Source: a virus. Taken from it: a stretch of 64,000 nucleotides of DNA. Made by a program: the position numbers and the translations under genes. The DNA is taken from positions 19,028-83,027 of the IMG/VR virus record IMGVR_UViG_3300033153_005694, one strand, 5' to 3'. How positions within the stretch are numbered: position 1 is the stretch's first letter; the number at the start of each line of letters is the position of its first letter. The notes under the pieces were generated by a model. That model did no database searches. It saw only the letters and a list, made by a program, of their open reading frames with translations, and was not told the DNA's origin. This document shows, in pieces, positions 33,893-59,039 of the stretch.

Positions 33893-34150
33893 CTAGATAA
33901 AATATTCTGGGTAGCGCTCTTTGTATATAGGATCTATATATGTAGGACTATCTTCAGTAAAATAGTATTTTATAGCTGCAGATTTATAATCTTCTAAAGA
34001 ATTTACAGAGTAGTTTGATAAAAGAATAAAAGCTATAAGTGATTTACAGTCTTTCTCAAAAGTACTTAAAATAAAAGCAAAACCTTGGGCTGTGTAGTCT
34101 GTAGGACATCCTTGTGTTAATAAGGATAGAAGTAACGTTGTAGAATTCAT
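33893..34150 (-). CDS. Hypothetical protein with C-terminal YPEYFI tag
   Basis: ORF track; shared C-terminal motif. Confidence 0.65.
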   Translation of the reverse strand: MNSTTLLLSLLTQGCPTDYTAQGFAFILSTFEKDCKSLIAFILLSNYSVNSLEDYKSAAIKYYFTEDSPTYIDPIYKERYPEYFI

Positions 34151-34158
34151 AGTAGTTT

Positions 34159-34725
34159 CTAGTGTTTAACAAAATTAATACCATTATATTGAGCTAGTTT
34201 AGTCATACAGTATCTGCAAGATGTTCCACATTCGACGTTTGAGCCTGCGGTGACTGGACAAGTGAATATAGAAGGATCTAGGTTTTCCACTTTGTCGTAG
34301 TTTAGTGAGCCGTGCATTAGTGAGTCGATGATGATTACATTTGGCATGCTCATTAAAGATGAAAAGTTGAAGTCACGTAAGCGTTTAGTAAAGGTATAGA
34401 ATATGAAATTTGGGAGTAAACGGGCAATAGTGGACCACTTGTCGACGTAGGCTTGAGAGTGAAATTCGCCTGACTCGTGTATACGAACTGTATGGCAAGG
34501 TCTGCGGTAGGATTTGAGTTCAGAGACTACGAGTTCAACGAATTCGTCAGTTTTGGAGATGTCTAAGCGAGCTTGACGATAAGGGACTACGGTTTTTGGA
34601 AAACGCTTTTGAGCTTTCAAAGCATAGCAACCTGGACATGTACGACCACATACAGACTTGTCAACGAGAATGTTGAAGATGTATTGGTCTTTAAGTTTGC
34701 TGTTTTGGAATTTGAATAGTTTCAT
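34159..34725 (-). CDS. Phage Gp88-like (Cys-rich, radical-SAM-like) protein
   Basis: NSKL, CGRTCPGCYA, RIHESGEF, FYTFTKR, CPVT...C..C..C. Confidence 0.7.
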   Translation of the reverse strand: MKLFKFQNSKLKDQYIFNILVDKSVCGRTCPGCYALKAQKRFPKTVVPYRQARLDISKTDEFVELVVSELKSYRRPCHTVRIHESGEFHSQAYVDKWSTIARLLPNFIFYTFTKRLRDFNFSSLMSMPNVIIIDSLMHGSLNYDKVENLDPSIFTCPVTAGSNVECGTSCRYCMTKLAQYNGINFVKH

Positions 34726-34967
34726 ATAAACATCTCCGGATGATACTCTTTATAGTTGTGGTATTTGTGGGATTCCTCAGCATAACCTGTAGTAGCGAAA
34801 AATTGCTTAAGATAAGTTTCAGTACCGATTTTGGATTTGGAAATAGGTAGGATATTGCCATAATCTGAGATGACTAGGTAAGTTTTGTCGGTTTCGTCGA
34901 TTACTGTAAGGTTGCCGGATTTACGTCCGTCTTTGGTATAAATAATGTCGTTAATTTTGAATTTCAT
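34722..34967 (-). CDS. Hypothetical protein with C-terminal HPEMFI tag
   Basis: TKDGRKSGN motif; shared C-terminus. Confidence 0.65.
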   Translation of the reverse strand: MKFKINDIIYTKDGRKSGNLTVIDETDKTYLVISDYGNILPISKSKIGTETYLKQFFATTGYAEESHKYHNYKEYHPEMFI

Positions 34968-35164
34968 ATAAGTAACTCCGGGAATTTGTTAGTGGTATCA
35001 GATGCTAGTACGTCTTGCTCTGCTGTAATCTGCTATAAGTAGTATCTAAAAATATCTAGATTACTGGTTTGGTAAGAAGTATAGCCTGCTGTGTTGGATT
35101 GAGTACCTATGGTATAGGTAATTGAATCATCGACGTTTAGCGGGACTCCAAATAAACCTGTCAT
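34964..35164 (-). pseudogene. Tagged small ORF (...NKFPELLI) with an in-frame TAG
   Basis: ATGA-coupled to pol; TAG at 35033-35035 in frame; read manually. Confidence 0.55.
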
Positions 35165-36981
35165 GGTATGTCCTTCAAGGCTTGGGTGATGTGGGCTAAT
35201 GAAGCGTCGTTAGGCAATTCAACTAGATTAGCCCAGTTTGGACCAATATCTAGATTTGCAGCATTGTGGACTATTTGATCAGGCATAAAATCTTTAGTCA
35301 TCACTGGAATGAGATTGTCGTTAAGCCACTTGATGATTTGTGGATCATTACGGACTTCAAAATAGATGCTATCGTAGATAGTTGAAGTAACGATGATGTC
35401 GTCTTGCAAGTTTGCATCGTCGATGAGTTGGTGCATCTTGTTGATGGTTAAAGCTGTAAGGATTGACCAGAATTGGCAAGTTGCATTATTGAGAGTACGA
35501 ATATCACGATCTGGAGAATCTGACTTAATATAGAAACCAAGACCTAGATGTATTTGGCCGTGTTGTCGTGCTGTAGGTAAAACGTAGTTCTCTCGATATT
35601 CGGTGATACCTGGATATAGGGTATTGTGGTAGTTGTTAAAGATTGCTTCGGCTGCTGGTAGTGAAATTTTGAGCGATGATGCAACTTTCGGTGGAAATGC
35701 ACCATAAGATAAACCAAATGTAGCACCTTTACCTTTTTGTCGGATTGCATCGAGAGATTTGTTTGAGTGTCGCAGTTTGTCGAAGGCTTTAACGTCGATG
35801 ACTGTATCGCCGGTTATCGGCATTTGTGCTGCAACTTCATCAGGGAAATAACCGTAAGCGTTTAAGCAGTGGCCATCTAGTCCTTCAAGGAATACATTGC
35901 ATTTGTTAGTGTCACGGGATAGTGAAGCAATGACTCGGTCTTCCAAAGCTGAGTAATCGGCTGTAGCGATGATGAAGCCTGGAGGTGCTGTAAAGCATTG
36001 CTTGATGGGTTTGGCAAATATCGAGCCTGTTGAAGGCATATTTAGCATGTTTGGATTGGATGATGTATAGCGACCTGACTTAGCGCCTAAAAGTTTATAG
36101 GAGCCGTATAGGCGGTCGTTTACGGTGTAGCGATAAAATGCTTCGATGAAGTTGTTACGGACTATAGCGGCAAAGGAATGATCGATAAAGCACTGTGTGA
36201 AGTGCTTGATATCGGGATCACTGGTTTCGGAATTAACCCGTTCGACTTGATCACGATTCCAAGAAGGTAAACCTGTGTCTTTGGAAGTAGCTTCGGACTT
36301 GATACCTAGCATGTTGAAAAGTTCGGTCTTTTGCTTCGGAGAAGCAGGATTGAACTGTGGAATATCAACGGGTGGACTAGCTATCTTCTCGAGATATTTC
36401 GAATTATAAATGTCGGCTTTGTGCTGCGATAAAAGTTCGATGGCTTTAATAGCAATAGAATGGGTGGGGGATAATTCACCTTTAAGAAATCGCTGTAAAA
36501 GAGGACGATTGAGTGAAAAAGTCTTGACAAGCTTGGCTGGCCATTTAGCGATACCGGTTGGTAGAAGTTCACTAGGTTGTGTAATACCTTGCTGTATAGC
36601 GAAGATGTGCATGAAATATGAACGATGGTTCATATCGTTGAATTTGAATGGCTTGATAAAGTCGGATGGTTGTTTAAGCTTGGATTGTTGGTCTGTGATG
36701 TAATCTTTGATTTTAGATTTGTGGGTCTTTGCAATGTAGCGCTGGATGATGGGGTTAGACGCTAGCTCTTCCGCGACTTTGGCTAACTGTGCATCGAGAA
36801 CAGTCTCGAGTTGTTCGACTCTGTCGAGATCGATGTGGAGACCATTTCCCATAAGCCTTACACTATCTCGGATAAGATGTTTAGCGGTGGTTTGGTAGAA
36901 TTCATCGATTGATGGAGATACAGTGCGAGGTTCAGGAGCTGGGAGTAAACTCCAAGGTGAATAGTGAGCTGAGGTGGTCAT
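35161..36981 (-). CDS. Family A DNA polymerase, polymerase domain
   Basis: SGRYTSSNPNMLNMP, motif A ADYSALEDR, motif B RQKGKGATFGLSYG, motif C IYDSIY. Confidence 0.92.
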   Translation of the reverse strand: MTTSAHYSPWSLLPAPEPRTVSPSIDEFYQTTAKHLIRDSVRLMGNGLHIDLDRVEQLETVLDAQLAKVAEELASNPIIQRYIAKTHKSKIKDYITDQQSKLKQPSDFIKPFKFNDMNHRSYFMHIFAIQQGITQPSELLPTGIAKWPAKLVKTFSLNRPLLQRFLKGELSPTHSIAIKAIELLSQHKADIYNSKYLEKIASPPVDIPQFNPASPKQKTELFNMLGIKSEATSKDTGLPSWNRDQVERVNSETSDPDIKHFTQCFIDHSFAAIVRNNFIEAFYRYTVNDRLYGSYKLLGAKSGRYTSSNPNMLNMPSTGSIFAKPIKQCFTAPPGFIIATADYSALEDRVIASLSRDTNKCNVFLEGLDGHCLNAYGYFPDEVAAQMPITGDTVIDVKAFDKLRHSNKSLDAIRQKGKGATFGLSYGAFPPKVASSLKISLPAAEAIFNNYHNTLYPGITEYRENYVLPTARQHGQIHLGLGFYIKSDSPDRDIRTLNNATCQFWSILTALTINKMHQLIDDANLQDDIIVTSTIYDSIYFEVRNDPQIIKWLNDNLIPVMTKDFMPDQIVHNAANLDIGPNWANLVELPNDASLAHITQALKDIP

Positions 36982-36989
36982 AGGATTCC

Positions 36990-37277
36990 TTAGATAAAAT
37001 ATTCAGGGTATTGATTGGGGTTTTGGAGAACAAAGATAGGAAGGGCTGAATTAAAAATTTGCTTATGTCTAGTTGATGGCCATCTGCCTTTAGAGTCTGG
37101 GCCTTGATGAGTAGCAGGATATTTGTAGTAAAATAAAGGTTTACGACCATCCCAGCAAGTATCTAAGCGAGTATCGTAGGTCTCTAGTACATGCTTTTTA
37201 TCCAGCGGTATTTGGGTATATAGCCAATCTAGGTCTTCGAGACTAGTGATCTGGATGGTGTATTTGTTGATATCCAT
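36990..37277 (-). CDS. Hypothetical protein with YPEYFI tag
   Basis: ORF track; shared C-terminus. Confidence 0.65.
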   Translation of the reverse strand: MDINKYTIQITSLEDLDWLYTQIPLDKKHVLETYDTRLDTCWDGRKPLFYYKYPATHQGPDSKGRWPSTRHKQIFNSALPIFVLQNPNQYPEYFI

Positions 37278-37279
37278 AA

Positions 37280-37564
37280 CTAGATGAATAATTCAGGCCA
37301 TTCGGTGCTGTTATAGGCTAATTGCTCGTTAATGACTACATACTCATAAGGATTACAGGCCAAACGTTTAGGTTCAGGTCTAGAGTGAGTTTGCGGATCA
37401 CGCATATACCAACCCTCAACCCATGGGTCTCTGATAAGAACGTAGATGTTCTCCTTTGTGACTTTGTCTACAGTTGTAATAGTGTCGTTATAGCGTGAGC
37501 CGTAGCCTTTAACTAGGATAGTATCGCCTATTTTGATTGGACGGCCTAAGATGTCTTGAAGCAT
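37280..37564 (-). CDS. Hypothetical protein with WPELFI tag
   Basis: DILGRPIKIGD N-terminus; shared C-terminus. Confidence 0.65.
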   Translation of the reverse strand: MLQDILGRPIKIGDTILVKGYGSRYNDTITTVDKVTKENIYVLIRDPWVEGWYMRDPQTHSRPEPKRLACNPYEYVVINEQLAYNSTEWPELFI

Positions 37565-37573: not shown

Positions 37574-37748
37574 TTAAATAAAAAATTCGGGGTATTGGTC
37601 TTTGAAATCGTTGAGAGTTGAAAGTGTAAACTTGTGGTCGGATAAGTAATCGTTGAGGTATAGCGATGTACTAGTAATCGACGTATTTGATGGTTGTAAA
37701 AGGTATACTAAGTTTGCGATATATCGTCTTGAGATGTAGAGTTAGCAT
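37574..37748 (-). pseudogene. Tagged small ORF (...DQYPEFFI), frameshifted near its start
   Basis: AAGGA SD plus ATG at 37748; span is 3n+1; read manually. Confidence 0.5.
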
Positions 37749-38405: not shown

Positions 38406-38591
38406 CTAGATAAGCAATTCGGGATATTGCTCTTGAAGTTGAGGTAAAATAATAGTTGGAATATCACTAGACAACTCAGTACAGATTTGCCCAATTGAGC
38501 AATCTCCACAATTGCTGCCGCTATAGTATATAATGTTGTTTTGTATATAAGTATCAGGATGGGATAATAAAGTAACATATTTGTCTAACAT
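38406..38591 (-). CDS. Small Cys-containing protein with YPELLI tag
   Basis: CGDCSIGQIC; shared C-terminus. Confidence 0.6.
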   Translation of the reverse strand: MLDKYVTLLSHPDTYIQNNIIYYSGSNCGDCSIGQICTELSSDIPTIILPQLQEQYPELLI

Positions 38592-40023: not shown

Positions 40024-40272
40024 TTAAATAAAGTATTCGGGATGAGATTGTAGAGTGAAGCGGTCAACTTCGATGATACCGTACTTTTTATGATGTTTAA
40101 CAAAAGTATCAACACTTGTAAAAGTACCTGTAAGTGGGCTTGTAAGAGGCCTAGATAATGCTGTTGATTTATCTACACACCAATTAGTCCATGTTCCGGT
40201 GACAGGATCAGTAACATAGTAACGAGTAGAATCTGAAGGAGTAAGATCCGCTATAGTCATAAGTAATCGCAT
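40024..40272 (-). CDS. Hypothetical protein with HPEYFI tag
   Basis: ORF track; shared C-terminus. Confidence 0.65.
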   Translation of the reverse strand: MRLLMTIADLTPSDSTRYYVTDPVTGTWTNWCVDKSTALSRPLTSPLTGTFTSVDTFVKHHKKYGIIEVDRFTLQSHPEYFI

Positions 40273-40280: not shown

Positions 40281-40595
40281 TTAAAGAAGAAGTTCAGGAT
40301 ATTCCTGTTGTAAGTTGAGATCGCAAAGTGGGCGTTTATTAATGTTGAAATCTGCTGTTAAGACTTCACAAATAGTATTTAGTTGTGCGGGTGTCCCATA
40401 TACTTCGAGTATGTTACGTGATTTAATGATTATATTAGAAGGACTAATGCATGCGTCGTTGTAAATTGAAAGACGACCTTGTGTCTTTAAGTGATTTCGA
40501 TGCTCTTCTAAACACTGTTTAGCCATAAACTTGTGGTAGTAAGAATGCCAGAAGATGATAAAATTTCGGGAAGTATACTTCCAAGATAAAGACAT
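40281..40595 (-). CDS. Hypothetical protein with YPELLL tag
   Basis: ORF track; shared C-terminus. Confidence 0.65.
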   Translation of the reverse strand: MSLSWKYTSRNFIIFWHSYYHKFMAKQCLEEHRNHLKTQGRLSIYNDACISPSNIIIKSRNILEVYGTPAQLNTICEVLTADFNINKRPLCDLNLQQEYPELLL

Positions 40596-40597: not shown

Positions 40598-41044
40598 TTA
40601 AAGGAAAAGTTCAGGATACTCTTCTGCGATAAAAGAAGTATCAGGAATTTTAGTAAGGGTATTACGGATATTAGCTAGGTTATCAAGTAGTTGCTGTTTG
40701 ATAGTATTTGTTCTAGACTTGATAGCTAGATTTTTAGCAGCTAAGGCGATGATTGGTGATGTGAAAAGAGAGCAAGAATAATAGTTTACGTTTTTCACGT
40801 CGATATTAGAGTGTATTGTTTTTATTCTCCAACCATTCTTGCCTAAAAGAGTTGCACTAGTTGATTTTTCGACGATTTTGTCGTCCTTAATGGTAAATAG
40901 TTTGCCGGTAGGAGCAAAACTAAATTGCTTATCTCCCCAACTAGTGGTTTTTTCTTTGACTGTAACCTCGTAAGTTCGTAAAGATTTGCCTTGTATATTG
41001 CCGGTTTGTGTAACAGATGTTGGTTCAATTAAATATGCTATCAT
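40598..41044 (-). CDS. Hypothetical protein with YPELFL tag
   Basis: ORF track; shared C-terminus. Confidence 0.65.
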   Translation of the reverse strand: MIAYLIEPTSVTQTGNIQGKSLRTYEVTVKEKTTSWGDKQFSFAPTGKLFTIKDDKIVEKSTSATLLGKNGWRIKTIHSNIDVKNVNYYSCSLFTSPIIALAAKNLAIKSRTNTIKQQLLDNLANIRNTLTKIPDTSFIAEEYPELFL

Positions 41045-41053: not shown

Positions 41054-41260
41054 TTAGATTTGAAGTTCAGAGTGTTGCCTGAATAAAATGTCGAGAAGTT
41101 GACCTAGAGTGTCGGCTTCGAAAGTATGTTGGTCGATGGTAATTCCACTTTGAAAGTCGTGGACAGACTTCCAAACGCTATCGATAGTATTGCTTGCAGT
41201 TACCCAATTTTCGGGGTCTGTTAAGGTTTTAGTAGCTATAGAGCTGATAGAAGTTGCCAT
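41054..41260 (-). CDS. Hypothetical protein with degenerate tag HSELQI
   Basis: ORF track; variant C-terminus. Confidence 0.55.
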   Translation of the reverse strand: MATSISSIATKTLTDPENWVTASNTIDSVWKSVHDFQSGITIDQHTFEADTLGQLLDILFRQHSELQI

Positions 41261-43382: not shown

Positions 43383-43633
43383 CTAGAGGGAATATTCAGG
43401 ATACTGATCGAAGATTTGCTCAAATTTGATAGCTAAAGATTGGCGAGCATCACTATGGTTTAGGAATATGTCGATATAAGTGTTATCCGCCGTAGAAAAA
43501 TAGTCCTTACCCTAAGAGTAACTAACATATCGGCTAAAAGGTATAAGTGAGACCACCAGATAATGAGTAAGATTGTCGAGCGAGTTCAGATGGTTTGAAG
43601 ATTGAATCGAGGTTGGCTTATAGATGTTTCACA
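43383..43633 (-). pseudogene. Decayed tagged ORF (...DQYPEYSL)
   Basis: In-frame TAG at 43512-43514 and no intact start; read manually. Confidence 0.45.
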
Positions 43634-44977: not shown

Positions 44978-45244
44978 TTAAATGAAGTATTCGGGATATT
45001 TGTCGCAGATTTCGCCTTTAAGTTGCTCAGGAGTAGCACTAGTTAATCCACCTGATTCGACGATCTTTCGAAACTTTTGCACAGTTTTGTAGTCAGGTAA
45101 GGTAAGCGTTTCGATTTTGCCGATAAACTTCTCGTATTTACAAAAAACTGGGTAGTCTTTCGCTGTGAGGAAAGCTACTTTTCGGTTGATGTGGTCAACT
45201 AGAAAGTAGTTGTTTGAAGCTGCGTTTCGGAATAAGAGTATCAT
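44978..45244 (-). CDS. Hypothetical protein with YPEYFI tag
   Basis: ORF track; shared C-terminus. Confidence 0.65.
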   Translation of the reverse strand: MILLFRNAASNNYFLVDHINRKVAFLTAKDYPVFCKYEKFIGKIETLTLPDYKTVQKFRKIVESGGLTSATPEQLKGEICDKYPEYFI

Positions 45245-45924: not shown

Positions 45925-46119
45925 TTAGTTTAAAAATTCTGGGTAGTATTCAGTGCTAATCGTAGATTTATCATCTATAATTAACGATAAGTATTCGTCA
46001 CGAGTGATTAAAGGGCCTTTTATTAGAGTGTCCATAAATTGGTGGTATTTGCGGACATTATGGGTACAACCAGTAAGTTCAAAAGCTAAGAAAATAGTGG
46101 GGAATTTAGTGGGTATCAT
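45925..46119 (-). CDS. Hypothetical protein with YPEFLN tag variant
   Basis: ORF track. Confidence 0.55.
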   Translation of the reverse strand: MIPTKFPTIFLAFELTGCTHNVRKYHQFMDTLIKGPLITRDEYLSLIIDDKSTISTEYYPEFLN

Positions 46120-46128: not shown

Positions 46129-46479
46129 TTAAATAAAGAGTTCGGGGTTACGTTTAGCGATATCGTCGAGTTGGGTGATATCAACTTTAGGATAAACTAG
46201 TTCTCCTTGTCCGCCAGCAGTTTTGCCATTACAGTAATAAGCTACCCAATTATCGTCATAGTTTTCGCCATCACCATAGACTTCGAAGACTACATTGGGG
46301 TACTGTTTAGAGATAGTTACCATGTCCTTCTCAGAGTCATACCACTTAACATTTCTCTCGTTTATAACACCAAATACATAATTTGTAGTCTTCTCAAAAA
46401 AAGATTGAAATTCCTCAGAATCTAAAAGTGATTTGTCGCCTGCAACGATATTGATATTATGGTATGTATAGTAACCCAT
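46129..46479 (-). CDS. Conserved phage hypothetical protein (MGYYT...KWYD...GDGE) with NPELFI tag
   Basis: Likely start MGYY at 46479 after an AAGGAG SD. Confidence 0.65.
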   Translation of the reverse strand: MGYYTYHNINIVAGDKSLLDSEEFQSFFEKTTNYVFGVINERNVKWYDSEKDMVTISKQYPNVVFEVYGDGENYDDNWVAYYCNGKTAGGQGELVYPKVDITQLDDIAKRNPELFI

Positions 46480-46481
46480 AA

Positions 46482-47270
46482 CTACTCCTTGAAAAGTTGT
46501 GGTTTGGCTGGTTGCTTTAATCGTAGATCTTGGGCTAGTAAGTAGCGAAGTTCTGGGTGTTGGTTCCAAGCATCTGCGGATTCAGCGATAAGTTGAAGTT
46601 GGCTGTCGATTTTGTCGTAGTCTTCAGAAGTGAAAGGTTCACGAAAGTTGAAAGTACGAACTGGCAGAGTTTTGGTCGGTTTGGTTACGTATTGTAGCTC
46701 GATGTAAGATATATTGATACCTTGCTGTCTGAGGATCCAAGCGTAAGTATGTAGCTGAAGTCGATAAGCATAGGTAAAACCTGATGGTTTCTTCCCTGCT
46801 GTCTTGTAGTCCCTAAGAACTAGATCATTCCCAAGCTTAACGATAGCGTCGTAAGTACCAGCTGCGTAGATGCCGGGTAAAACTGGATGGTGAATGAACT
46901 GTTCGATGGAATGGAACCGTGTGCCGATGATTGAGTCGGTGATGATTGCGTTAGACATATCTCGCCAATGAGTTTCGATCTCGGCTCTGTCGAAGTCGAT
47001 GGTTTGTGAGTCAAGGTAGTCGGAAACAAGTTGGTCAGGATTTGCAGGTCTGAGGCCTAAACCTGCTTGCTCTGCAAAGTAGTGAACGATTGTACCTAGT
47101 AGAGAGGCTGTAGAGCCTTCGAAGCCAGGTTCGTTGAGGAAATTAACTCCCCACCATTGCCGAGTGTTGGAAAAGAAATCGGCGATAGAAGAAGGTGAAA
47201 GTCGCGTATAGTCGGCTGAGCCATTGTGAGCAGTTAAAACGTCTGCACCTGAATAATATGAATTGATCAT
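46482..47270 (-). CDS. PD-(D/E)XK exonuclease (RecB/Cas4-like)
   Basis: LSPSS, GTIVH, AGTYDA...DYKT, QLHTY. Confidence 0.85.
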   Translation of the reverse strand: MINSYYSGADVLTAHNGSADYTRLSPSSIADFFSNTRQWWGVNFLNEPGFEGSTASLLGTIVHYFAEQAGLGLRPANPDQLVSDYLDSQTIDFDRAEIETHWRDMSNAIITDSIIGTRFHSIEQFIHHPVLPGIYAAGTYDAIVKLGNDLVLRDYKTAGKKPSGFTYAYRLQLHTYAWILRQQGINISYIELQYVTKPTKTLPVRTFNFREPFTSEDYDKIDSQLQLIAESADAWNQHPELRYLLAQDLRLKQPAKPQLFKE

Positions 47271-47278: not shown

Positions 47279-47530
47279 TTAAATTAAAAGTTCTGGGTAT
47301 TGGATTCGTAGTTTGTCAAGGTCTAAAGGCAGATCTTTAATATGGGGATAAATTAAAGTTTTGTAGTTGTTTGCAAAACCGCCATCTAAAGCAGATAAAA
47401 TATCACACCTTGCTGGGCATATGCTACATTGGGAAGTACAGCTATCTCTGTAGATATGTTGCTTCCAATCAAAAATATGTTCGGTTATACGAGCTTGAAT
47501 AAAAGTAGTGATAATCTGTGAGGTATTCAT
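47279..47530 (-). CDS. Small Cys-rich protein with YPELLI tag
   Basis: CTSQCSICPARC; shared C-terminus. Confidence 0.6.
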   Translation of the reverse strand: MNTSQIITTFIQARITEHIFDWKQHIYRDSCTSQCSICPARCDILSALDGGFANNYKTLIYPHIKDLPLDLDKLRIQYPELLI

Positions 47531-47538: not shown

Positions 47539-47889
47539 TTAAATAAAATATTCTGGATAGTCGTCTCGAATGTCATCGATAGCTGCATAAATGCCAAGAA
47601 AAGTTCGTGGAGCTTTGGAAGACCAAGATGATTCGTCAGTAAGTGATCTAGTTTCGGAACTAGTTTCGGTGATGTGTTCGGTAATCAGGATGGTGTCAAC
47701 TAGGTAAAGGTGATAAATACCGTCAGGTAGTGGTGGGACTATTAGTAAAGGAAGGATATCAGCTTCACTAGATGAATCCAGTAGTTTGCAAATCTTCAAG
47801 TAATTAAAGGACTTTGGAGTGATGGTTCGTGATCCTGTAGATAATTGGAGAGTTACGGAGTCATCCGTCATCTTGATGTGCGGTATCAT
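47539..47889 (-). CDS. Possible truncated rIIB-like protein with YPEYFI tag
   Basis: Overlaps the rIIA 3' end; N-terminus MTDDSVTL...TIT....NY resembles rIIB N-termini. Confidence 0.45.
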   Translation of the reverse strand: MIPHIKMTDDSVTLQLSTGSRTITPKSFNYLKICKLLDSSSEADILPLLIVPPLPDGIYHLYLVDTILITEHITETSSETRSLTDESSWSSKAPRTFLGIYAAIDDIRDDYPEYFI

Positions 47890-50002: not shown

Positions 50003-50095
50003 TTAAATAAGTAGTTCTGGATGGCGTATCTCTGAATTAAATAACTCTATTTCATACCCTATAGTAAGAGCTTGCTTAAGTTGGTCAATAGTCAT
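50003..50095 (-). CDS. 30-aa micro-ORF with HPELLI tag
   Basis: AAGGA SD; MTIDQLKQALTIGYEIELFNSEIRHPELLI; read manually. Confidence 0.55.
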   Translation of the reverse strand: MTIDQLKQALTIGYEIELFNSEIRHPELLI

Positions 50096-52388: not shown

Positions 52389-52793
52389 TTAAATAGAAAT
52401 TCTGGGTGGGTATTAGCAAGTTTTGGAAAATAATAGTCTTGTACGTTGTTAGTTAAGTCTAACGGGGTCCTTCGTGCAGGTTACTAAGTGTGTCAAAGAC
52501 TCTACAATTTCGAGTTTAATCTCTTTTGCAGTTGGTAAGTTAGGTATGTATCTAATAGTGATTTTGATAGGTATGTGGAATAGCACTTCGGCTGAGGCTA
52601 TTGCTGTCTCCGTTATACTTTTCTATAAGTTCTAAAGTAGTTCCGGTTGGAAAGATTAAAGCTATAGTTAATTGGTTTATTGTGGGGCATTAAAATTATA
52701 AGAGCCAGGGTCATATCGCCCTTTTTGATATTTGTATTTTACTTTGTAGTCTATTATACAATTAGGAATTAAAATATATCCTGTTATTGTCAT
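52389..52793 (-). pseudogene. Multiply disrupted tagged ORF (ends ...NTHPEFL)
   Basis: SD plus ATG at 52793, early stop, and degenerate tag CCAGAATTTCTATTTAAAGGA just before the primase gene. Confidence 0.4.
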
Positions 52794-53599: not shown

Positions 53600-54466
53600 T
53601 TAGATTAAGTGTTCGGGGTAAGTATCGATAACAACTTGCGGTATTTCGATAGTTGGGTATGGAGGATAAGTATGTCGACCTGCTATAGCTACTATAGAAT
53701 TAATATGGTTATCCCATTGTTTTTTGGTGTTTTGTCCACGAGTTGCTGTGTATAGTTGCAGTTCGGGAGAGAAGTGGGGTAATGGCAGGATTTTGGTATG
53801 TGATTTGATGAGAAAATCATAGATTTTTAAGCGTTGATTAGCAGGTAACTGGTCAATGGCTTTGATGATGTATGGAACGTAAAACATATTAACGCTCATA
53901 AATGTGCGGATTTGAAAACCGACTGTAGATTTTACCTTTTTTTCGTAGTAATGAGGTATTCTTTCATCCCAACGATATACAAGTTTGTTTAATGCTGTTT
54001 GAAATTTGGTGAAATCTAGTGTTTGTTTCTTTTGGTAAATGTATTTAGTAAGTCGGCTAAGAGTATTTGATTGAAATTTGTCTAGTTCGAAATATAGGTC
54101 ATCGTGAAATGTTGGGTGTTGGTATAGAGTGCCCTCTGGTAGCATTGCTTGACGAGATTTGTTTAAGTCAAAATCTGCAAGGATTTGTTCGGGAGTACCA
54201 AATTGGTTGACGATGAGTTGGATGTCGTAGTGGTCAATGATTGGAGCTTTAGAAGGTATAACACCTGAGCTATTTTTGTAAGTATGGGCGTTGCTAGTGG
54301 TATAATCAGCTTCGCCGAACTGTTTGATTACAGTACTTGCGGTATGCTGGTCAATAAAATAGATGTCGATGTCTTTGGCTTTATCGAGTAAAGAACCGCC
54401 AGCTATAAACCAGCCAGATGGTGGAAGTAACTGTTTGAGTTTGTTGAAGTGCTCAGGTTTGATCAT
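53600..54466 (-). CDS. Nucleotidyltransferase-like protein with YPEHLI tag
   Basis: FIAGGS....KDIDIYF, IQLI, FDL. Confidence 0.7.
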   Translation of the reverse strand: MIKPEHFNKLKQLLPPSGWFIAGGSLLDKAKDIDIYFIDQHTASTVIKQFGEADYTTSNAHTYKNSSGVIPSKAPIIDHYDIQLIVNQFGTPEQILADFDLNKSRQAMLPEGTLYQHPTFHDDLYFELDKFQSNTLSRLTKYIYQKKQTLDFTKFQTALNKLVYRWDERIPHYYEKKVKSTVGFQIRTFMSVNMFYVPYIIKAIDQLPANQRLKIYDFLIKSHTKILPLPHFSPELQLYTATRGQNTKKQWDNHINSIVAIAGRHTYPPYPTIEIPQVVIDTYPEHLI

Positions 54467-54720
54467 AGGAATAACTCCGGATAGGTGTCAAGAAGCTCTT
54501 GCTGGCTTGTAAAGCTGTAAAGAAGAGTAAAATTTTTACCAAGAGCTTGCTCAATAGGCTTGCCAGTATTACTATTTTGATTAAAGTGTGAAGGACCAGA
54601 AAAATCGTAAGCTAAAGTGTTTGTTATGGTACTACAACGGGTACTAGATGCATAATCAGGAGTACGAACCAATATAAAAGAATTAGGTGTATTTTTAACT
54701 TGAATTAAATGATATTGCAT
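54463..54720 (-). CDS. Hypothetical protein with YPELFL tag
   Basis: ORF track; shared C-terminus. Confidence 0.65.
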   Translation of the reverse strand: MQYHLIQVKNTPNSFILVRTPDYASSTRCSTITNTLAYDFSGPSHFNQNSNTGKPIEQALGKNFTLLYSFTSQQELLDTYPELFL

Positions 54721-54751: not shown

Positions 54752-55943
54752 TTACTCGATCTTAGTAACTATTTTCTTGAATAGCTTTTTATTGTTTAGA
54801 TCTTTGTCGAAGTTTGATAGCTTCATATAGTTGTCAAAGTTGTCATCTTTTTTCGATTTTAAGAAAGCAGCTAAGATTTCGATGTCTGTACCATATAAGT
54901 ATGCTAATAGTGGTAAAGCGTCTTCAGAAGATTCTGATTTAATGTATTTAGTAAATAAGTTGTTGGCAAGTTCTGTCTTTTGAATAGCTTCCTGGTTTGC
55001 GATAAGCTTATTGATATGATTACCAATTTTCTCAGGGTTTTTAACCAATACAACCTTTAAAGATTTGGAATTGAACTACGTCTGGGATCTTGTCGATTTT
55101 GTCTACGAATGACGCAAGTTTAGTCCAAGATCTAGGTGTTGCCCCAACTCCGCCATCTGCAGGTGTCCAATGGATTCTGTCTGGATGTTCAGCGATGAAA
55201 TCTCTAACGATTGAGTTGACGTTAGCTGTTCTAGCCCAATCTAGCCATGCAGTTGCATCTGCTTCCACAGTACAGTGGGTAAACCTGTCTAGAAGTGCTG
55301 GATCGAAGGTGTTAACCGTGTAGTCTTGATCTGCAGGATTGATGGCTGCGACTACAAATGTAGGTTTACCATCAACTATTGGTAGTAAGTGTGAGTGTAA
55401 ACGTTTGTCAAGAACTAATTGAAGGCTGGCATTTAGAATGTCAACTGGTGCTCTGTTGAATTCGTCTAAAAAGATTACAGATCTTTTGGCTTTGCTGTAA
55501 GTGATAAGGTCTTGAGTGATTAAATGTAGCATGTCATTGATCTCGCCTGTAAATTCGCAATATAGGGCATTTAGAGATGCTCTATCGATAGATGAACTAG
55601 TGTCTATTCTGTCGATTACAAATGATTTGATTTCGTCAGATGCGAAGCTTAAGTCATCGAAGTTGACTGATGGTGGGAATGCAGCATTTATAACCCTATT
55701 GTACCAGTCTGCTCCTGCCCATACAGTAGTTATCTGACCACCAACTTCAGCAGTTCTAGGCATACCCATTAAATCGGATACGTCCATAAGAGATAAGATT
55801 AAAGTTTCACAATGTAAGTCTTGCTCTGTAGCGAATTGTTTAACTATGTCTGATTTTCCAAGACCATGTAGGCCAGTTATTAGTGGTGCAGCATCTACGA
55901 TGTGGCATGCTTCTACGAAGCTTTTTGTCTCATTTATTGTCAT
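54752..55943 (-). CDS. MoxR-like AAA+ ATPase (N4 gp24-like), broken into two frames at about 55041-55048
   Basis: GLHGLGKS, FLDEFNRA, AAINP, DPALLDRF, TPRSW. The downstream ORF has only a TTG start and a different frame. Confidence 0.75.
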
Positions 55944-55968: not shown

Positions 55969-56231
55969 CTATATTAGCAATTCTGGGTTTGATTGTTTAA
56001 GGTGTTCGGCTAAAGTTTGTGTTAAGTTTTCACCGTTGTTACAGCTAGGTTGAAGTTTGCAGGCTTGGCAAGGGATTCCTTGGCATATGGCATAGATTGA
56101 GCCTTTGTCACGATCTAGTTCAATTTGGTAACAGAATGGGTCGATGTCTGTTTTCTTGAATTTTTTGCGAGATTTCTTGTCATCTTTATAGACGATGTAT
56201 AAGGGAAATCGCCGATTTGTGAAGTAATCAT
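55969..56231 (-). pseudogene. Cys-rich tagged ORF (...QSNPELLI) missing one base near its start
   Basis: Span is 263 nt (3n-1); CQGIPCQACKLQPSC; read manually. Confidence 0.55.
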
Positions 56232-56233
56232 AG

Positions 56234-57436
56234 TTATTCTTTAAGCTGGAATGCTGTCATTTTGCCTTTGTTCATTGAGTCCATGATTTGGCCATTGGCT
56301 TCGATTAACCAGATAATTCGCTTGTTAAGTTTAGCGAATACTTCGACGTCTGAGGTGTCAAGGTAACCGTCTGTAGTAATTACTATAGCGTTGTAGTCAA
56401 GTCTATACTCTTTGGCTTTGTTGATTGCTGGAGATAAGTAAGTACCACCTGCTGCTTTACGTTCAACGATTTTGGTGTTTTTCTTCAGTTCTTCGGGTTT
56501 GCTAGGTTGTGTGCTGATTTGAATAAGTTTGACTGCAGATTGAGTTACGTCACAAATATGTCGAACTTCGCCCCATAAGTGTAGAAGAGCGTCGTCAGAT
56601 ACTGAACCTGATACGTCGGATACGATGAGTAGGTCAAATATACGGTCTTTAGTTCGACCTTTGAGCCATTCGAAGTCTGGTAGTCGTCTGTCAGGTCTCA
56701 TCGTAGTTTTGCGAGAACCTACACGTTTGTTGCCTACTATGTTTCGAAGGACTTTACGCCAATCTAGTTCACGTTTGTGGGTGAATAGGTCAAGCCAATT
56801 GCTGATTGCGTTAGGTATAGTACCACGAGATTTCTGGGTGCTAGAGATTGACTTTTCGATCATGTTTTTGGTAATGTCATCTTGTAGTTCTGGATCACCT
56901 TGAGACTCATCCCATTTAGAATGTGCTCCACCTGGAGTTCCTGAGCCTTGGTTTTGTTGGTCTTTGGGTGGTAATTGGTCTTTGTCGAGGTATTCGTAGT
57001 ATTGTTCAGCAGACTTGTTGTTTGGTGTTTTCTTCTTTGAAGGAAAGTTATCAGGATAAATACAGCCGTTTGGTAGATGTGTACGATCGATAGCTTGATT
57101 GATTGCACAGTCTGTTGCGTAGTTGAAAGCCTGGGGATCTCTGTCTTGCCGTCTGTAGATGTGGCCATTTAAGATGTGTAGCATTTCGTGTTTAAGAATA
57201 CCTAGTCGTTGAACAAGTGGGAATTTGTTGAATTCGTCAGGGTTGATAAATAGGTTGTAGTGATCTAGATAAAAATTGACACTGGCAGGTGCGGGTAAAG
57301 ATTTGTCATATTGGACTTTACATTGAGCAATCATGTGAGTGTAGAATAGGTAAGTTTGGGAATATTGAGATTGGATAGCTATCATATTACTGATAGCTTC
57401 TTCAAATCCATATTTGTCAGCTGGAGTGATTTGCAT
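56234..57436 (-). CDS. DUF2201-type metallopeptidase/VWA protein (N4 gp25-like)
   Basis: LKHEMLH, NYATDCAIN, MIDAS DVSGSV, GGT, TTDGY. Confidence 0.85.
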   Translation of the reverse strand: MQITPADKYGFEEAISNMIAIQSQYSQTYLFYTHMIAQCKVQYDKSLPAPASVNFYLDHYNLFINPDEFNKFPLVQRLGILKHEMLHILNGHIYRRQDRDPQAFNYATDCAINQAIDRTHLPNGCIYPDNFPSKKKTPNNKSAEQYYEYLDKDQLPPKDQQNQGSGTPGGAHSKWDESQGDPELQDDITKNMIEKSISSTQKSRGTIPNAISNWLDLFTHKRELDWRKVLRNIVGNKRVGSRKTTMRPDRRLPDFEWLKGRTKDRIFDLLIVSDVSGSVSDDALLHLWGEVRHICDVTQSAVKLIQISTQPSKPEELKKNTKIVERKAAGGTYLSPAINKAKEYRLDYNAIVITTDGYLDTSDVEVFAKLNKRIIWLIEANGQIMDSMNKGKMTAFQLKE

Positions 57437-57437: not shown

Positions 57438-58091
57438 TTAGTCCTTTAAAGTAGTGGGTAGTGTTCCAATGAATGGTTCACAGTAGTAGTATCTACCATG
57501 AGGTTTAGTAAGATATTTATGTGTATGATTATCCATTTTCATAAGTTGTAATAATTGTGGTTGATCTTCTGATGAATGCCAAAACCAACACCATTCGTTT
57601 GGTTGTGGTTGCCAGGGTTTAATATCTGATATAAGGATTATGCCTTTTAAATTATTACCTTTTAATGTGACTGTATCATGTCCTATAGGAGCGCTAATTA
57701 CTTGTTTTATAATTCTGGGATTTTTACATGTAGTAATCTCAACCCAATCACCAACTTTGAATTGTGGTTCGTCGGGTTTGATTCTACAGTAACTTGGTAC
57801 ATAGTTTAACATGTCAATATTATTTGAATTTTTCCATTCAGGATAAGATTGTTTATTAACATTTACTTGAATAGTTTTACCTTCAGCTAATGCTTTACGC
57901 AATTCAACATATTCGTCGTTGATGATGTAAGTACAATCTTCGATAGTTCCAGCAAAGAATGTTGAAGGTTCGTCATAATCAATAGTAAGCCATTGTGGTA
58001 TAGTATCATCAGGATAATAACCTAATAGTTTTCCGCCATTAAGCCAGTGTTCGAATTCAAGTTTGTATTTATTGATTATGTCTTTATTCAT
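57438..58091 (-). CDS. Hypothetical protein
   Basis: ORF with AAGGA SD. Confidence 0.6.
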   Translation of the reverse strand: MNKDIINKYKLEFEHWLNGGKLLGYYPDDTIPQWLTIDYDEPSTFFAGTIEDCTYIINDEYVELRKALAEGKTIQVNVNKQSYPEWKNSNNIDMLNYVPSYCRIKPDEPQFKVGDWVEITTCKNPRIIKQVISAPIGHDTVTLKGNNLKGIILISDIKPWQPQPNEWCWFWHSSEDQPQLLQLMKMDNHTHKYLTKPHGRYYYCEPFIGTLPTTLKD

Positions 58092-58100
58092 GGTTGTCCT

Positions 58101-58331
58101 TTAAATTAATAGTTCTGGATAGTTTGTAGAGTTGAATTTGCGATAATCTTTGATTGTTGTAATTAACATATGGCCTTCTTCTTGTAGCTTTTCGATATTT
58201 ACAGTAGAGTTGTAACAAAGTGTTGTGGCAGTAATCTCATTTAATGTACACCAAGTGGAATTGGCTGTTTTAGAACATACCCAATAAGGTTTTTGTGGAT
58301 TGTTTTTAATATTACAAAGTATATAGTACAT
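58101..58331 (-). CDS. Hypothetical protein with YPELLI tag
   Basis: ORF track. Confidence 0.6.
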   Translation of the reverse strand: MYYILCNIKNNPQKPYWVCSKTANSTWCTLNEITATTLCYNSTVNIEKLQEEGHMLITTIKDYRKFNSTNYPELLI

Positions 58332-58339
58332 AAAAATCC

Positions 58340-58762
58340 TTAGATAAGTAATTCTGGTTTGTGTCGGCGTAAATAGTCTACGACTTCACTAGGTAAATCT
58401 TGCGGAGTAAAATCTTGTATGTGGGAATCTACAGACTCTGAATAATAGCCGTTAGATGAGTCATGCCATTTGATGTCTACATAGCCTTTGATAGTGGCTA
58501 GAGTGTAGAATGTCCAAGTTTCGGATTCACCATAGTTGGTATCGGCATGGTACACTTTTTTGTCAACACGAAGTAGTGGATTGTAGAGTAGATTATCAAG
58601 ATTACCGACTATATCGTCAATAACAACTTCCTCGCAGCAATCTTGGTCATGTCGTATAGTGACTACTTTGCCGTTAGCTAGATAAAACTTGATGTTATCA
58701 TCTAGGTCTTCGCTACGTGTAAGTTTGATATAGATAGGTATCTGGTTTTTAAGGTTTTGCAT
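58340..58762 (-). CDS. Conserved phage protein (H.QDCCE.V...TWTFY...SNGYYSESV) with KPELLI tag
   Basis: Recognisable conserved phage hypothetical motif plus an appended tail carrying the tag. Confidence 0.7.
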   Translation of the reverse strand: MQNLKNQIPIYIKLTRSEDLDDNIKFYLANGKVVTIRHDQDCCEEVVIDDIVGNLDNLLYNPLLRVDKKVYHADTNYGESETWTFYTLATIKGYVDIKWHDSSNGYYSESVDSHIQDFTPQDLPSEVVDYLRRHKPELLI

Positions 58763-58769
58763 AGTAGTC

Positions 58770-59039
58770 CTAGATAAATAATTCAGGGTTAGAAGTTTTG
58801 TAAAGCTCTGGATGGTTGTGGATAATAGCTAAAAGTAAATCTGTAAGATCGTAGCTACGTTTAATGTCACTATAGTAAGAATCTTTAGCGAATTTGGTAA
58901 TAGAGTATTTGTTATCGAGTAATCGAAATAGATATTCATGGTCGTCTAAATCACTAGGTTTTACAAGTTGGTGAAATGTGTAATCGATGGATATACCTAG
59001 CTGTTGCTGGGCATTGTCCATGAGTTGTTGAGGTGTCAT
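58770..59039 (-). CDS. Hypothetical protein with NPELFI tag
   Basis: ORF track; also an internal HPELY copy. Confidence 0.6.
   Translation of the reverse strand: MTPQQLMDNAQQQLGISIDYTFHQLVKPSDLDDHEYLFRLLDNKYSITKFAKDSYYSDIKRSYDLTDLLLAIIHNHPELYKTSNPELFI

What the first reader, a model, noticed from the sequence alone, without database searches (positions are those of the whole stretch)
33893..59039. About 25 accessory proteins share one C-terminal hexapeptide tag, x-P-E-(L/Y/F)-(F/L)-(I/L)-stop
Seen in the ORF track (19): YPEYFI (33893, 36990, 44978, 47539), HPEMFI (34722), WPELFI (37280), YPELLI (38406, 47279, 58101), HPEYFI (40024), YPELLL (40281), YPELFL (40598, 54463), HSELQI (41054), YPEFLN (45925), NPELFI (46129, 58770), YPEHLI (53600), KPELLI (58340). 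Read manually (6): FPELLI (34964), YPEFFI (37574), YPEYSL (43383), HPELLI (50003), degenerate HPEFL (52389), NPELLI (55969). In the intact ORFs the Glu always sits four residues from the C-terminus. Codons vary synonymously (CCA/CCC/CCG/CCT, GAA/GAG, CTT/TTA/TTG/CTA/CTC), which points to selection on the peptide. The carriers are mostly unrelated, 30-288 aa long, and include a nucleotidyltransferase-like protein. No structural gene and no core replication gene (pol, exonuclease, helicase, SSB, primase, rIIA, MoxR/VWA) ends with it. Inference: a phage-wide C-terminal address label, such as a degron, a virion-loading or export signal, or a docking peptide for one hub protein. I do not know of a description of this system.
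Basis: partly seen in the sequence, partly recalled or inferred. Interest (0 to 1): 0.93.

Follow-up and report, generated by a model that had tools for sequence, protein, structure and literature searches.

The report
Shared C-terminal tag on phage proteins
About two dozen otherwise unrelated small proteins of this N4-like marine phage end in the same short peptide, which also marks up to a quarter of all proteins in other phages, including a cultured Vibrio phage, and looks like an address label that may be read by the phages' own MoxR/VWA machine.

Summary
In the window, 20 intact and 5 damaged minus-strand ORFs between 33893 and 59039 end in [YHN]-P-E-x-[FL]-[IL]-stop; chance predicts about none.

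Selection acts on the peptide, not the DNA. Synonymous codons mostly match genome usage, and the peptide survives three different gene-junction layouts. It is a bolt-on: 116 of 120 listed DUF7448 homologues lack it. With tails trimmed, 64 carriers fall into 46 BLAST clusters.

The tag is widespread. It sits on 51 of 193 ORFs in a complete 103.5-kb relative and on 76 of 384 ORFs in the cultured Vibrio myovirus VB_VaC_TDDLMA. One lineage has switched every tag from P-E to P-H, which argues for a single co-evolving reader.

Among the window phage's non-carrier genes, only a MoxR AAA+ ATPase and a zincin+VWA protein track the tag across lineages.

I found no published description. This scan has noted other C-terminal tags beside MoxR/VWA pairs on other phage DNA.

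The parts
33893..34150 (-). carrier, 85 aa, ends YPEYFI; last gene of a run, no start codon close downstream
34722..34967 (-). carrier, 81 aa, ends HPEMFI; CCG GAG ... ATA TGA, overlapping the next start
   Evidence: homologue in G001 ends YPEEFL
34964..35164 (-). damaged carrier: 43-aa ORF, in-frame TAG, then 22 codons ending FPELLI
   Evidence: an 88-aa homologue of the 43-aa part in G010 (68% identity) ends LHPELFI
36990..37277 (-). carrier, 95 aa, ends YPEYFI, directly upstream of the DNA polymerase gene
37280..37564 (-). carrier, 94 aa, ends WPELFI; member of the most widespread carrier family
37574..37741 (-). 55-codon open frame ending YPEFFI, no ATG/GTG/TTG start
38406..38591 (-). carrier, 61 aa, ends YPELLI
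40024..40272 (-). carrier, 82 aa, ends HPEYFI, directly upstream of the helicase gene
40281..40595 (-). carrier, 104 aa, ends YPELLL
   Evidence: weak homologue in the Vibrio phage
40598..41044 (-). carrier, 148 aa, ends YPELFL
   Evidence: homologue in G010
41054..41260 (-). degenerate carrier, 68 aa, ends HSELQI (Pro replaced by Ser)
43383..43511 (-). 42-codon open frame ending YPEYSL, no start codon; probable relic
44978..45244 (-). carrier, 88 aa, ends YPEYFI
45925..46119 (-). carrier, 64 aa, ends YPEFLN (last residue atypical)
46129..46569 (-). carrier, up to 146 aa from TTG (true start uncertain), ends NPELFI; matches phrog_6306
47279..47530 (-). carrier, 83 aa, ends YPELLI
47539..47889 (-). 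carrier, 116 aa, ends YPEYFI; homologous gene after rIIA in tag-poor relatives ends WPEY[ALVC][LF]
50003..50095 (-). mini-carrier, 30 aa, little more than the module, ends HPELLI
52391..52408 (-). decayed tag HPEFLF, not followed by a stop, just upstream of the primase gene (coordinates approximate)
53600..54466 (-). carrier, 288 aa, ends YPEHLI; weak nucleotidyltransferase-like match; homologue beside MoxR in the Vibrio phage
54463..54720 (-). carrier, 85 aa, ends YPELFL
55969..56256 (-). 95-codon open frame ending NPELLI, no in-frame start; ATG at 56231 is in another frame (probable frameshift)
58101..58331 (-). carrier, 76 aa, ends YPELLI
58340..58762 (-). carrier, 140 aa: DUF7448 domain plus an extension of about 25 aa ending KPELLI
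58770..59039 (-). carrier, 89 aa, ends NPELFI
56234..57436 (-). candidate reader, part 1: 400-aa zincin-like (HEMLH) plus VWA-like (D-x-S-G-S) protein, DUF2201_N + DUF2201
54752..55943 (-). candidate reader, part 2: MoxR-type AAA+ ATPase, here in two ORFs (55041-55943, 300 aa; 54752-55048, 98 aa)

Best explanation
The tail is a protein-level C-terminal tag. It is a module of about 14 residues: a short amphipathic stretch, then [YHF]-P-E-x-[FL]-[IL] with a free carboxyl end. It is appended to dozens of unrelated, fast-turning-over small soluble accessory proteins of the replication-gene block.

Shown:
- The peptide, not the DNA, is conserved.
- It is portable between folds.
- It works only at the extreme C-terminus.
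- Its variants change in concert within a phage lineage.

Inferred: all carriers are recognised by one reader that co-evolves with the tag.

Proposed mechanism, not shown: the hydrophobic end and free carboxylate dock on the MoxR ring, as the NorD C-terminus does on NorQ. Alternatively, or in addition, the invariant Glu or the carboxylate engages the VWA metal site or the zincin site. The ATPase then remodels the client, or feeds it to the metallopeptidase. This would give the phage timed activation or removal of a large, changeable set of accessory proteins.
For: Peptide-level selection (66 tails from three phages):
- Pro codons are CCA 21, CCC 16, CCG 14, CCT 15.
- Synonymous codons of Glu, Leu, Ile, Phe and Tyr do not differ from genome usage (p 0.17 to 1.0).
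- GAG is used 18 times, 17 of them where the next gene's ATG overlaps a TGA stop, so it doubles as a ribosome-binding site. GAA goes with TAA/TAG stops without overlap in 43 of its 48 uses.
- The same peptide is therefore kept in three junction layouts.

Conservation in homologues: they are 23-50% identical overall and keep P-E.

Portability:
- Of 120 listed DUF7448 homologues, 116 end just after the domain. Only the window protein and its 3 closest relatives carry the extension and tag.
- LRR proteins, a nucleotidyltransferase-like protein and one helicase also carry it or a tag-like end.
- 64 carriers with the last 14 aa removed fall into 46 BLAST clusters, 36 of them singletons.

End-specificity: 23 occurrences followed by a stop against 1 not, and 0 internal.

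One reader:
- The last residue is Ile in all but one of the 51 G010 tags and in 67 of 76 in the Vibrio phage. It is mostly Leu in G001, Val in G007 and Phe in L130.
- Contig G017 has 0 P-E tags but 15 P-H-x-[LF]-hydrophobic-stop matches against 2 in the control.

Reader identity:
- Of all non-carrier proteins of the window phage, only MoxR and the VWA protein are found in every tag-bearing genome that covers the region (G010, G002, G006, Vibrio phage TDDLMA, AD45-P1, G004). Both are absent from the tag-less relatives G005 (100% complete), G011 (91%) and G012. They are also absent from G013 and G014.
- The VWA protein is 48.7% identical to that of the Vibrio myoviruses, more than to the nearest podovirus isolate (39.3%).
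- Among 33 loci chosen by VWA homology alone, 18 of 20 with 42% identity or more have tags within 10 kb. The figure is 2 of 6 at 33-37%. At 26% or less, 2 of 7 have a single doubtful match.
- Phages with only a distant gp25-type homologue (N4, AR9, SBP1, ZC03, RaK2) give 0, 1, 0, 3 and 1 pattern matches.

Motifs: HExxH and D-x-S-G-S are conserved.

Against:
- The co-occurrence is confounded by descent. The tag-bearing N4-like genomes form one clade and the three fully examined tag-less ones are outgroups. Independent events are therefore few: the N4-like clade, the Va1-like myoviruses, and a few other contigs.
- Fragments G001, G008, G007 and G009 carry tags, but no MoxR/VWA lies in the part held.
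- Contigs G016 and G018 have a VWA homologue (37% identity). They show no P-E or P-H pattern match, and no other shared tail within 10 kb of the gene.
- AD45-P1 and G004 have MoxR/VWA but only 3 and 2 tags.
- Distant MoxR/VWA pairs occur throughout N4-like phages without this tag.
- My covariation attempt was weak. Seven of 58 conserved VWA columns differ in the P-H phage. The most striking, an otherwise universal His, proved on inspection to be shifted by one position rather than lost.
- The phage VWA protein does not itself end in a hydrophobic tail, so the NorD analogy is not exact.
Confidence: 0.45

Rival explanations
1. The tag is read by a host protein rather than a phage one. It could be a degron for a host protease such as ClpXP, Lon or FtsH. 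It could also be a docking peptide for a host hub such as the sliding clamp, or a partner of the FtsZ C-terminal peptide.
For: - The tag occurs in unrelated phage lineages: podoviruses and myoviruses, with GC 25-45%.
- The window phage and the Vibrio phage share other recently exchanged genes, with NrdD 64% identical. This suggests a common host pool.
- Hydrophobic C-terminal ends are classic bacterial degradation signals (recalled knowledge: Parsell, Silber and Sauer 1990, not read here).
- Some tag-bearing fragments show no MoxR/VWA in the part held.
Against: - Related N4-like genomes without MoxR/VWA, two of them 91-100% complete, have no tags at all.
- Tag variants shift in concert per phage lineage, including P-E to P-H. 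That is easier to explain with a phage-encoded reader.
- The invariant Pro-Glu (63 of 63 and 76 of 76) is more specific than the known loose degrons.
- The motif matches no known clamp, SSB or ssrA motif that I can recall (comparison from memory only).
Confidence: 0.25
2. Another phage protein is the reader. Candidates are the ClpP-like serine protease (28106-28717) or a protein of the recombination module. In that module the Sak4-like protein ends in a similar acidic-aromatic-x-aliphatic tail.
For: - A ClpP-like protease is encoded by the window phage, and related genes occur in the Vibrio phage and G009.
- The Sak4-like proteins of all relatives end [DE]-[FYW]-x-[LI].
- The oldest carrier family sits directly upstream of the recombination nuclease.
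Against: - ClpP-like, Sak4-like, SSB and nuclease genes are all present in the tag-less relatives G005, G011 and G012.
- tblastn of the window's ClpP-like, Sak4-like, SSB and nuclease proteins finds no match in the Vibrio phage at E 1e-4 or better.
- The Vibrio phage's own ClpP-like protein matches G002 and G008 only weakly, at 25-28% identity.
Confidence: 0.1
3. The carriers are one extremely diverged paralogous family. The tail is then simply the last conserved piece of a common fold, not a portable signal.
For: - Conservation extends about 14 residues.
- Many carriers are of similar size, with medians of 88-106 aa.
- Some carrier families recur across phages.
Against: - The tail is attached to a widespread DUF7448 domain that lacks it in 116 of 120 listed homologues.
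- It is also attached to LRR proteins, to a 288-379 aa nucleotidyltransferase-like family and, in tag-like form, to a helicase.
- With tails removed there are 46 clusters from 64 proteins, at a lenient E-value in a tiny database.
Confidence: 0.06
4. The peptide acts while still on the ribosome. A nascent-chain effect at termination would tune release and re-initiation, so that tightly packed downstream genes are translated in step.
For: - Most carriers end within about 10 nt of the next start or overlap it (ATGA).
- The motif is strictly stop-anchored.
Against: - Carriers with no start codon close after their stop keep the tag (33893 in the window, 13010 in L003).
- Core genes in the same operons are just as tightly coupled without it.
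- The concerted P-E to P-H change and the link with MoxR/VWA have no place in this model.
Confidence: 0.05
5. The conserved thing is DNA or RNA: a junction element made of ribosome-binding site and stop codon, or a site for cassette shuffling. It would merely happen to be translated.
For: - In the window the common context is TAY CCN GAA YTN YTY ATY TAA GGAC, then 4-5 nt, then ATG.
- An earlier first-stage note on this same stretch suggested a cassette junction (e1-6115721).
Against: - Variation falls on synonymous positions. All four Pro codons are used and Leu is spelled six ways.
- The peptide is kept where the stop is TAA-GGA, where it is an ATGA overlap, and where nothing follows.
- There are essentially no out-of-frame or stop-less copies.
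Confidence: 0.04

Closest known systems
NorQ-NorD (MoxR AAA+ / VWA) complex, PMC13036017
   Same: A MoxR-type AAA+ ring holds its partner partly through the partner's extreme hydrophobic C-terminus. Removing the last two residues abolishes co-purification (abstract and passages read). Here a MoxR/VWA pair co-occurs with proteins that share a hydrophobic extreme C-terminus.
   Different: In NorQD the tail belongs to the single VWA partner, not to dozens of clients. The phage VWA protein also carries a zincin domain and has no hydrophobic end. No binding is shown here.
vWA-MoxR systems as described by Kaur, Burroughs, Iyer and Aravind 2020, PMC7159879
   Same: They propose that the vWA domain captures a peptide of a substrate protein and the MoxR ATPase releases it in an altered conformation (passages read).
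   Different: In the passages I read those systems are bacterial ternary conflict systems with VMAP, iSTAND, FtsH or propeller partners. I saw no phage proteome-wide C-terminal tag there. I did not read the whole paper.
   Same: A short C-terminal signal on many unrelated proteins, with a phyletic distribution that follows one cognate machine.
   Different: Those signals direct export or encapsulation. They have other sequences and readers. The carriers here are small soluble proteins without membrane segments.
   Same: A free hydrophobic C-terminus as a recognition element.
   Different: Known degrons are looser and are read by host proteases. Here Pro-Glu is invariant and the tag follows a phage gene pair.
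   Same: Several unrelated phage proteins share a hydrophobic C-terminal tail that docks on one phage hub.
   Different: That involves a handful of replication and transcription proteins and a sliding clamp. Here it is 20-76 proteins per genome, none a core replication enzyme in the window, and I recognised no clamp gene.

Membership tests
MoxR AAA+ / VWA client-recognition systems (NorQD, CbbQO, RavA-ViaA type) | A MoxR-type AAA+ ATPase is encoded | tested here: met
   55041-55943 matches AAA_5, AAA and AAA_3. It is homologous to the AD45-P1 gene annotated as MoxR-like ATPase. It is split into two ORFs in this genome.
MoxR AAA+ / VWA client-recognition systems (NorQD, CbbQO, RavA-ViaA type) | A partner protein with a VWA domain and an intact metal-ion site motif | tested here: met
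   56234-57436 matches DUF2201_N and DUF2201 (VWA-like). D-x-S-G-S and T-D-G are conserved in 4 homologues. D-x-S-G-S also holds in all but the most distant of the 15 sequences shown (L136 reads D-T-S-N-S).
MoxR AAA+ / VWA client-recognition systems (NorQD, CbbQO, RavA-ViaA type) | Physical contact between the tagged proteins and the ATPase or VWA protein | not testable with these tools
Only co-occurrence is available.
C-terminal sorting signal with a cognate machine | The signal sits at the extreme C-terminus of many unrelated proteins | tested here: met
   23 occurrences followed by a stop against 1 not, and 0 internal. 46 clusters from 64 carriers. DUF7448 bolt-on.
C-terminal sorting signal with a cognate machine | The signal and the machine have matching phyletic distributions | tested here: inconclusive
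   For: 7 of 7 adequately covered tag-bearing genomes have the pair, 0 of 5 tag-less relatives do, and 18 of 20 close VWA loci have tags. Against: independent lineages are few, and G016 and G018 have the VWA gene without a detected tag.
Bacterial C-terminal degrons (ssrA-like) | The tag shortens protein half-life through a protease | not testable with these tools
   No expression or stability data are available.
Nucleotide-level junction or recombination element | Conservation is independent of codon position and reading frame | tested here: not met
   Variation is concentrated at synonymous sites, and the peptide is kept across three junction layouts. There are almost no stop-less or out-of-frame copies.

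The most novel reading that the evidence does not exclude
Many marine phages of unrelated morphotypes carry a tag-and-reader system. A MoxR AAA+ ATPase with a zincin-VWA partner recognises a C-terminal tag of about 14 residues on a fifth to nearly a third of the phage's proteins, and remodels or destroys them on schedule. Tag and reader co-evolve: P-E in most lineages, P-H in one, and other tails in other phages noted by this scan. Any newly acquired or newly born gene that lands in front of a tag is at once placed under the phage's own control. That would explain why the carriers turn over so fast.
Probability: 0.4. Interest if true: 0.95.

Novelty: categorically new. Interest (0 to 1): 0.9.

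Why it matters
- Function for phage dark matter. Small accessory ORFs are the least understood part of phage genomes. A shared tag on 20-30% of the ORFs of some phages would give this dark matter its first common, testable property.
- A role for a common gene pair. It would give a function to the MoxR/VWA pairs that are common in large phages and N4-like phages.
- How new genes are domesticated. It suggests that new genes acquire the tag by fusion to an existing tail.
- A practical tool. A short portable tag with a phage-encoded reader could also serve as a tool.
- It can be tested now. A cultured host-phage pair exists: the Va1/phiTY18/TDDLMA group on Vibrio alginolyticus or V. parahaemolyticus. 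The question can therefore go straight to the bench.

Tried and rejected
Function and family searches that gave little:
- Pfam and PHROGs on the 20 window carriers. Only DUF7448 (58340) and weak PHROG hits for five proteins, so no function.
- Pfam and PHROGs on 10 Vibrio-phage carriers: nothing. Pfam on 10 larger ones: only sub-threshold noise and LRR fragments.
- All-against-all BLAST for hidden paralogy in the window phage: only the last 20 or so residues align.

Hub candidates set aside on phyletic grounds:
- ClpP-like protease, PhoH, SSB, Sak4-like and nuclease are all present in tag-less relatives.
- rIIA is absent from G002 and from the Vibrio phage in my searches.
- A match between the Sak4 tail's last residue and the tag's last residue holds for the window phage and G001 but fails for L004 and L016.

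Covariation between the P-H switch and the VWA or MoxR sequence: no clean compensating change.

Searches that added little:
- The single-protein search for related loci for the VWA protein found nothing. The alignment query worked.
- Megablast of 12 kb of the window against cultured phages gave only a 41-nt match to a crAss-like phage.
- The genome-contig scan gave 18 stretches. Sixteen are chance single or double hits. Two small MAG contigs hold arrays and look like phage fragments; I draw no host inference from their bin names.

Literature:
- Search listings. None pointed to a description of the tag. One search, on literal motif strings, was swamped by ordinary words and is uninformative.
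- Passages read by term search: the AD45 paper PMC3821669, the N4-like survey PMC10654107, the phiTY18 paper PMC9633966, PMC10587174 and the Sak4 paper PMC5928155. None mentions the tag.
They might list such motifs.

Nothing can be said either way.

Full report
**What the window is.** The window is bases 19028-83027 of an 83,027-base virus record. Its primase is 55.9% identical to that of Alteromonas phage vB_AmaP_AD45-P1, an N4-like podovirus. More distant matches include N4 itself. The first half of the window holds structural genes and a split virion RNA polymerase on the plus strand. The second half holds nucleotide-metabolism, replication and accessory genes on the minus strand.

**The observation.**
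- Twenty ORFs with a start codon end in [YHNWK]-P-E-[LYFMH]-[FL]-[ILN]. Two of them have degenerate ends, HSELQI at 41054 and YPEFLN at 45925.
- Five more copies are damaged. One follows an in-frame TAG (34964). Three are open frames without a start (37574, 43383, 55969; the last probably frameshifted). One has lost its stop (52389).
- The tag is confined to 33893-59039, one contiguous minus-strand block. Elsewhere there is only one 16-codon plus-strand chance hit, at 54281.
- Chance is excluded. The motif is followed by a stop 23 times and not once. It never occurs inside a called gene. The mirror control EP.. gives 1 against 21. The commonest fixed-offset C-terminal dipeptide in tag-less relatives reaches only 4-6, against 17 here.
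- Conservation reaches further back than six residues. There are hydrophobic residues at -13 and -10, often Lys or Arg at -9, and an aromatic residue or His at -6.

**Peptide or DNA?** In this window most tags sit in the string TAY CCN GAA YTN YTY ATY TAA GGAC, followed by 4-5 nt and then ATG. Here the stop overlaps the next gene's ribosome-binding site. A DNA-level junction element was therefore a serious rival. Four results speak against it.
- Variation sits at synonymous positions. Across 66 tags of three phages the four Pro codons are used 21, 16, 14 and 15 times. Codon use for Glu, Leu, Ile, Phe and Tyr is indistinguishable from genome usage.
- The same peptide is encoded in three junction layouts. 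These are TAA/TAG followed by GGA, an ATGA overlap, and isolated stops with nothing close downstream. In the ATGA layout the Glu codon is GAG in 17 of 20 cases, and 17 of the 18 GAG codons lie there, so it serves as the next gene's ribosome-binding site.
- In the few carrier families with homologues in other phages (23-50% identity), Pro-Glu is among the few invariant columns.
- The tag is a bolt-on. The DUF7448 protein at 58340 has an extension of about 25 residues ending in the tag, and so do its three closest homologues. The other 116 of 120 listed homologues stop just after the domain.

The carriers are not one family. With the last 14 residues removed, 64 carriers from eight phages fall into 46 BLAST clusters, 36 of them singletons. 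They include LRR proteins and a nucleotidyltransferase-like protein. In one phage a helicase has a 19-residue extension with a tag-like end, CPEEFI. Carriers are small (medians 88-106 aa) and soluble, with no membrane-like segment.

**Distribution.**
- Around the DNA polymerase gene of 17 related IMG/VR loci (16 distinct phages, since L017 repeats the L011 tags), the tag is frequent in three phages, rare in three and absent from ten.
- Whole contigs give 17 tags in G001 (47 kb), about 25 in G002 (52 kb), 2 in G004 (78 kb) and 3 in AD45-P1.
- A scan of IMG/VR for one spelling of the tag (PEYFI-TAA-GGA) returned 9 stretches from 6 contigs. Every stretch held 2-16 tags.
- Among them is G010, a complete 103.5-kb genome with terminal repeats and a polymerase 67% identical to the window's. 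In it 51 of 193 called ORFs carry the tag.
- G006 has 25 tags and G008 has 23. G007 has 13, on a contig without N4-like genes. G009 is a myovirus fragment with tail-sheath and baseplate genes.
- A short blastn of one junction against cultured phages hit the Va1/phiTY18/phiKT1024/TDDLMA group of Vibrio myoviruses of about 190-196 kb.
- In VB_VaC_TDDLMA the codon pattern for P-E-x-[LF]-I-stop occurs 60 times on the coding strand and once on the other. The reversed control pattern occurs once and not at all. In that phage 76 of 384 called ORFs end in the tag, with the same 14-residue profile.
- In bacterial genomes the same scan found arrays only on two small MAG contigs that look like phage fragments.
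- The tag is therefore a widespread feature of phage accessory proteins, not a peculiarity of this genome.

**One reader.** Each phage has its own flavour of the tag.
- The last residue is Ile in all but one of 51 tags in G010 and in 67 of 76 in the Vibrio phage. It is mostly Leu in G001, Val in G007 and Phe in L130.
- Contig G017 has no P-E tag. Instead, 12 of 43 ORFs near its VWA gene end in P-H-[LSWI]-[FLIG]-[LVI]. The contig as a whole has 15 pattern matches against 2 in the control.
- A concerted change of an otherwise invariant residue in all carriers of a genome is what one expects if all are read by one partner that changed with them.

**Which reader?** I asked which non-carrier proteins of the window phage follow the tag's distribution.
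- Only two do: the MoxR-type AAA+ ATPase (54752-55943) and the 400-aa protein at 56234-57436. The latter combines a zincin-like domain (HEMLH) with a VWA-like domain (D-x-S-G-S).
- Both are present in G010, G002, G006, AD45-P1, G004 and the Vibrio myovirus. Both are absent from the tag-less relatives G005 (100% complete), G011 (91%), G012, G013 and G014.
- ClpP-like protease, PhoH, SSB, Sak4-like protein and nuclease all occur in tag-less relatives too.
- The window's VWA protein is closer to that of the Vibrio myoviruses (48.7%) than to AD45-P1's (39.3%). All other cultured-phage homologues shown in the 60 spread rows of 133 matching records are 28% identical or less over most of the protein. 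Five phages of that distant kind have 0-3 pattern matches.
- As an independent sample I collected 33 IMG/VR loci by VWA homology alone. Tags lie within 10 kb in 18 of 20 loci at 42% identity or more, and in 2 of 6 at 33-37%. At 26% or less, 2 of 7 loci have only a single doubtful match.
- Whole-contig counts agree, with exceptions. G016 and G018 (37%) have no detected tag.

**Limits of that inference.**
- It is co-occurrence, with few independent lineages, and some tag-bearing contigs are fragments.
- A covariation search gave no clean answer.

The mechanism I propose therefore leans on published MoxR/VWA work. In NorQD the extreme hydrophobic C-terminus of NorD docks on the post-sensor-1 loop inside the MoxR ring and is needed for complex stability (PMC13036017; abstract and passages). 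Kaur and colleagues propose that vWA domains capture a substrate peptide that MoxR then releases in altered form (PMC7159879; passages). The invariant Glu, or the free carboxylate, could engage the VWA metal site or the zincin site. That part is conjecture.

**Comparison with earlier notes of this scan.** After I had reached the MoxR/VWA lead, a look-up showed follow-up reports on other phage genomes. They describe different stop-anchored C-terminal tags on many accessory proteins, several with MoxR/VWA as suspected reader. They are unchecked AI notes. They agree with the picture here and gave me the NorQD reference, which I then read myself.

**Novelty.** My literature searches found no description of this tag. 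Nor did term searches in the AD45, N4-like survey and phiTY18 papers.

**Verdict.** A peptide-level tag is close to certain. A single co-evolving reader is likely. MoxR plus zincin-VWA is the best candidate reader, at roughly even odds. The biological outcome, whether remodelling, timed proteolysis or something else, is unknown.

Noticed in passing
L127 (contig G017), whole 21-kb locus and contig: A related tag with His in place of the invariant Glu. It reads ...P-H-L-F-L-stop on 12 of 43 ORFs near the VWA gene. The contig has 15 pattern matches and no P-E tags.
   Followed up: partly
window 44057-44746 (SSB), 46482-47270 (PD-(D/E)XK-type nuclease), 45247-45909 (Sak4-like): Two further conserved C-terminal endings in the recombination module. 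SSB and the nuclease end in P-x-L-F-x-K-like tails in many relatives. The Sak4-like protein ends [DE]-[FYW]-x-[LI] in all relatives, including tag-less ones. These may be docking tails of their own.
   Followed up: partly
window 54752-55943: The MoxR gene is in two ORFs (300 aa and 98 aa, overlapping by 8 nt), while homologues are single proteins of 369-435 aa. It may be a frameshift, a sequencing error or a real split.
   Followed up: no
window 29405-29836 and 30439-32223: The window's 594-aa and 143-aa proteins are homologous to the genes that the Vibrio phage VB_VaC_TDDLMA record annotates as anaerobic ribonucleotide reductase large and small subunits. They are 64% and 52% identical, far more than the core genes. 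This points to gene exchange between these unrelated phages and hints at a related host range.
   Followed up: partly
L011/G002, helicase gene (G002 23113-24585): The helicase carries a 19-residue C-terminal extension ending CPEEFI that other helicases lack. It looks like a fusion to the tail of a lost carrier gene, which is one way tags could move to new proteins.
   Followed up: no
window 41739-41779: A 41-nt stretch is 97.6% identical to uncultured crAss-like phage cr6_1. It lies between the two halves of a split gene that the first-stage note e1-6115724 reads as a metallophosphoesterase, beside an HNH endonuclease gene. It is possibly a conserved intron or endonuclease-associated element.
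   Followed up: no
G010 26997-28360 and AD45-P1 gp027 (record 32970-33176): A separate small cluster of tag carriers sits on the other strand, just upstream of the genes annotated N4 gp69-like and gp68-like. Not all carriers belong to the replication block.
   Followed up: no
L059 (JASFSF010000089.1, 7.9 kb) and L070 (QMNM01000278.1, 3.2 kb): Small contigs binned into Ignavibacteria and Cloacimonadota MAGs consist almost wholly of tag-carrying small ORFs (16 and 6). They are probably phage fragments in the bins.
   Followed up: no
L130 (contig G021): A tag variant ends in Phe (YPEIMF, YPEIFF, YPELKF, YPEIIF) beside a VWA homologue of 33% identity.
   Followed up: no
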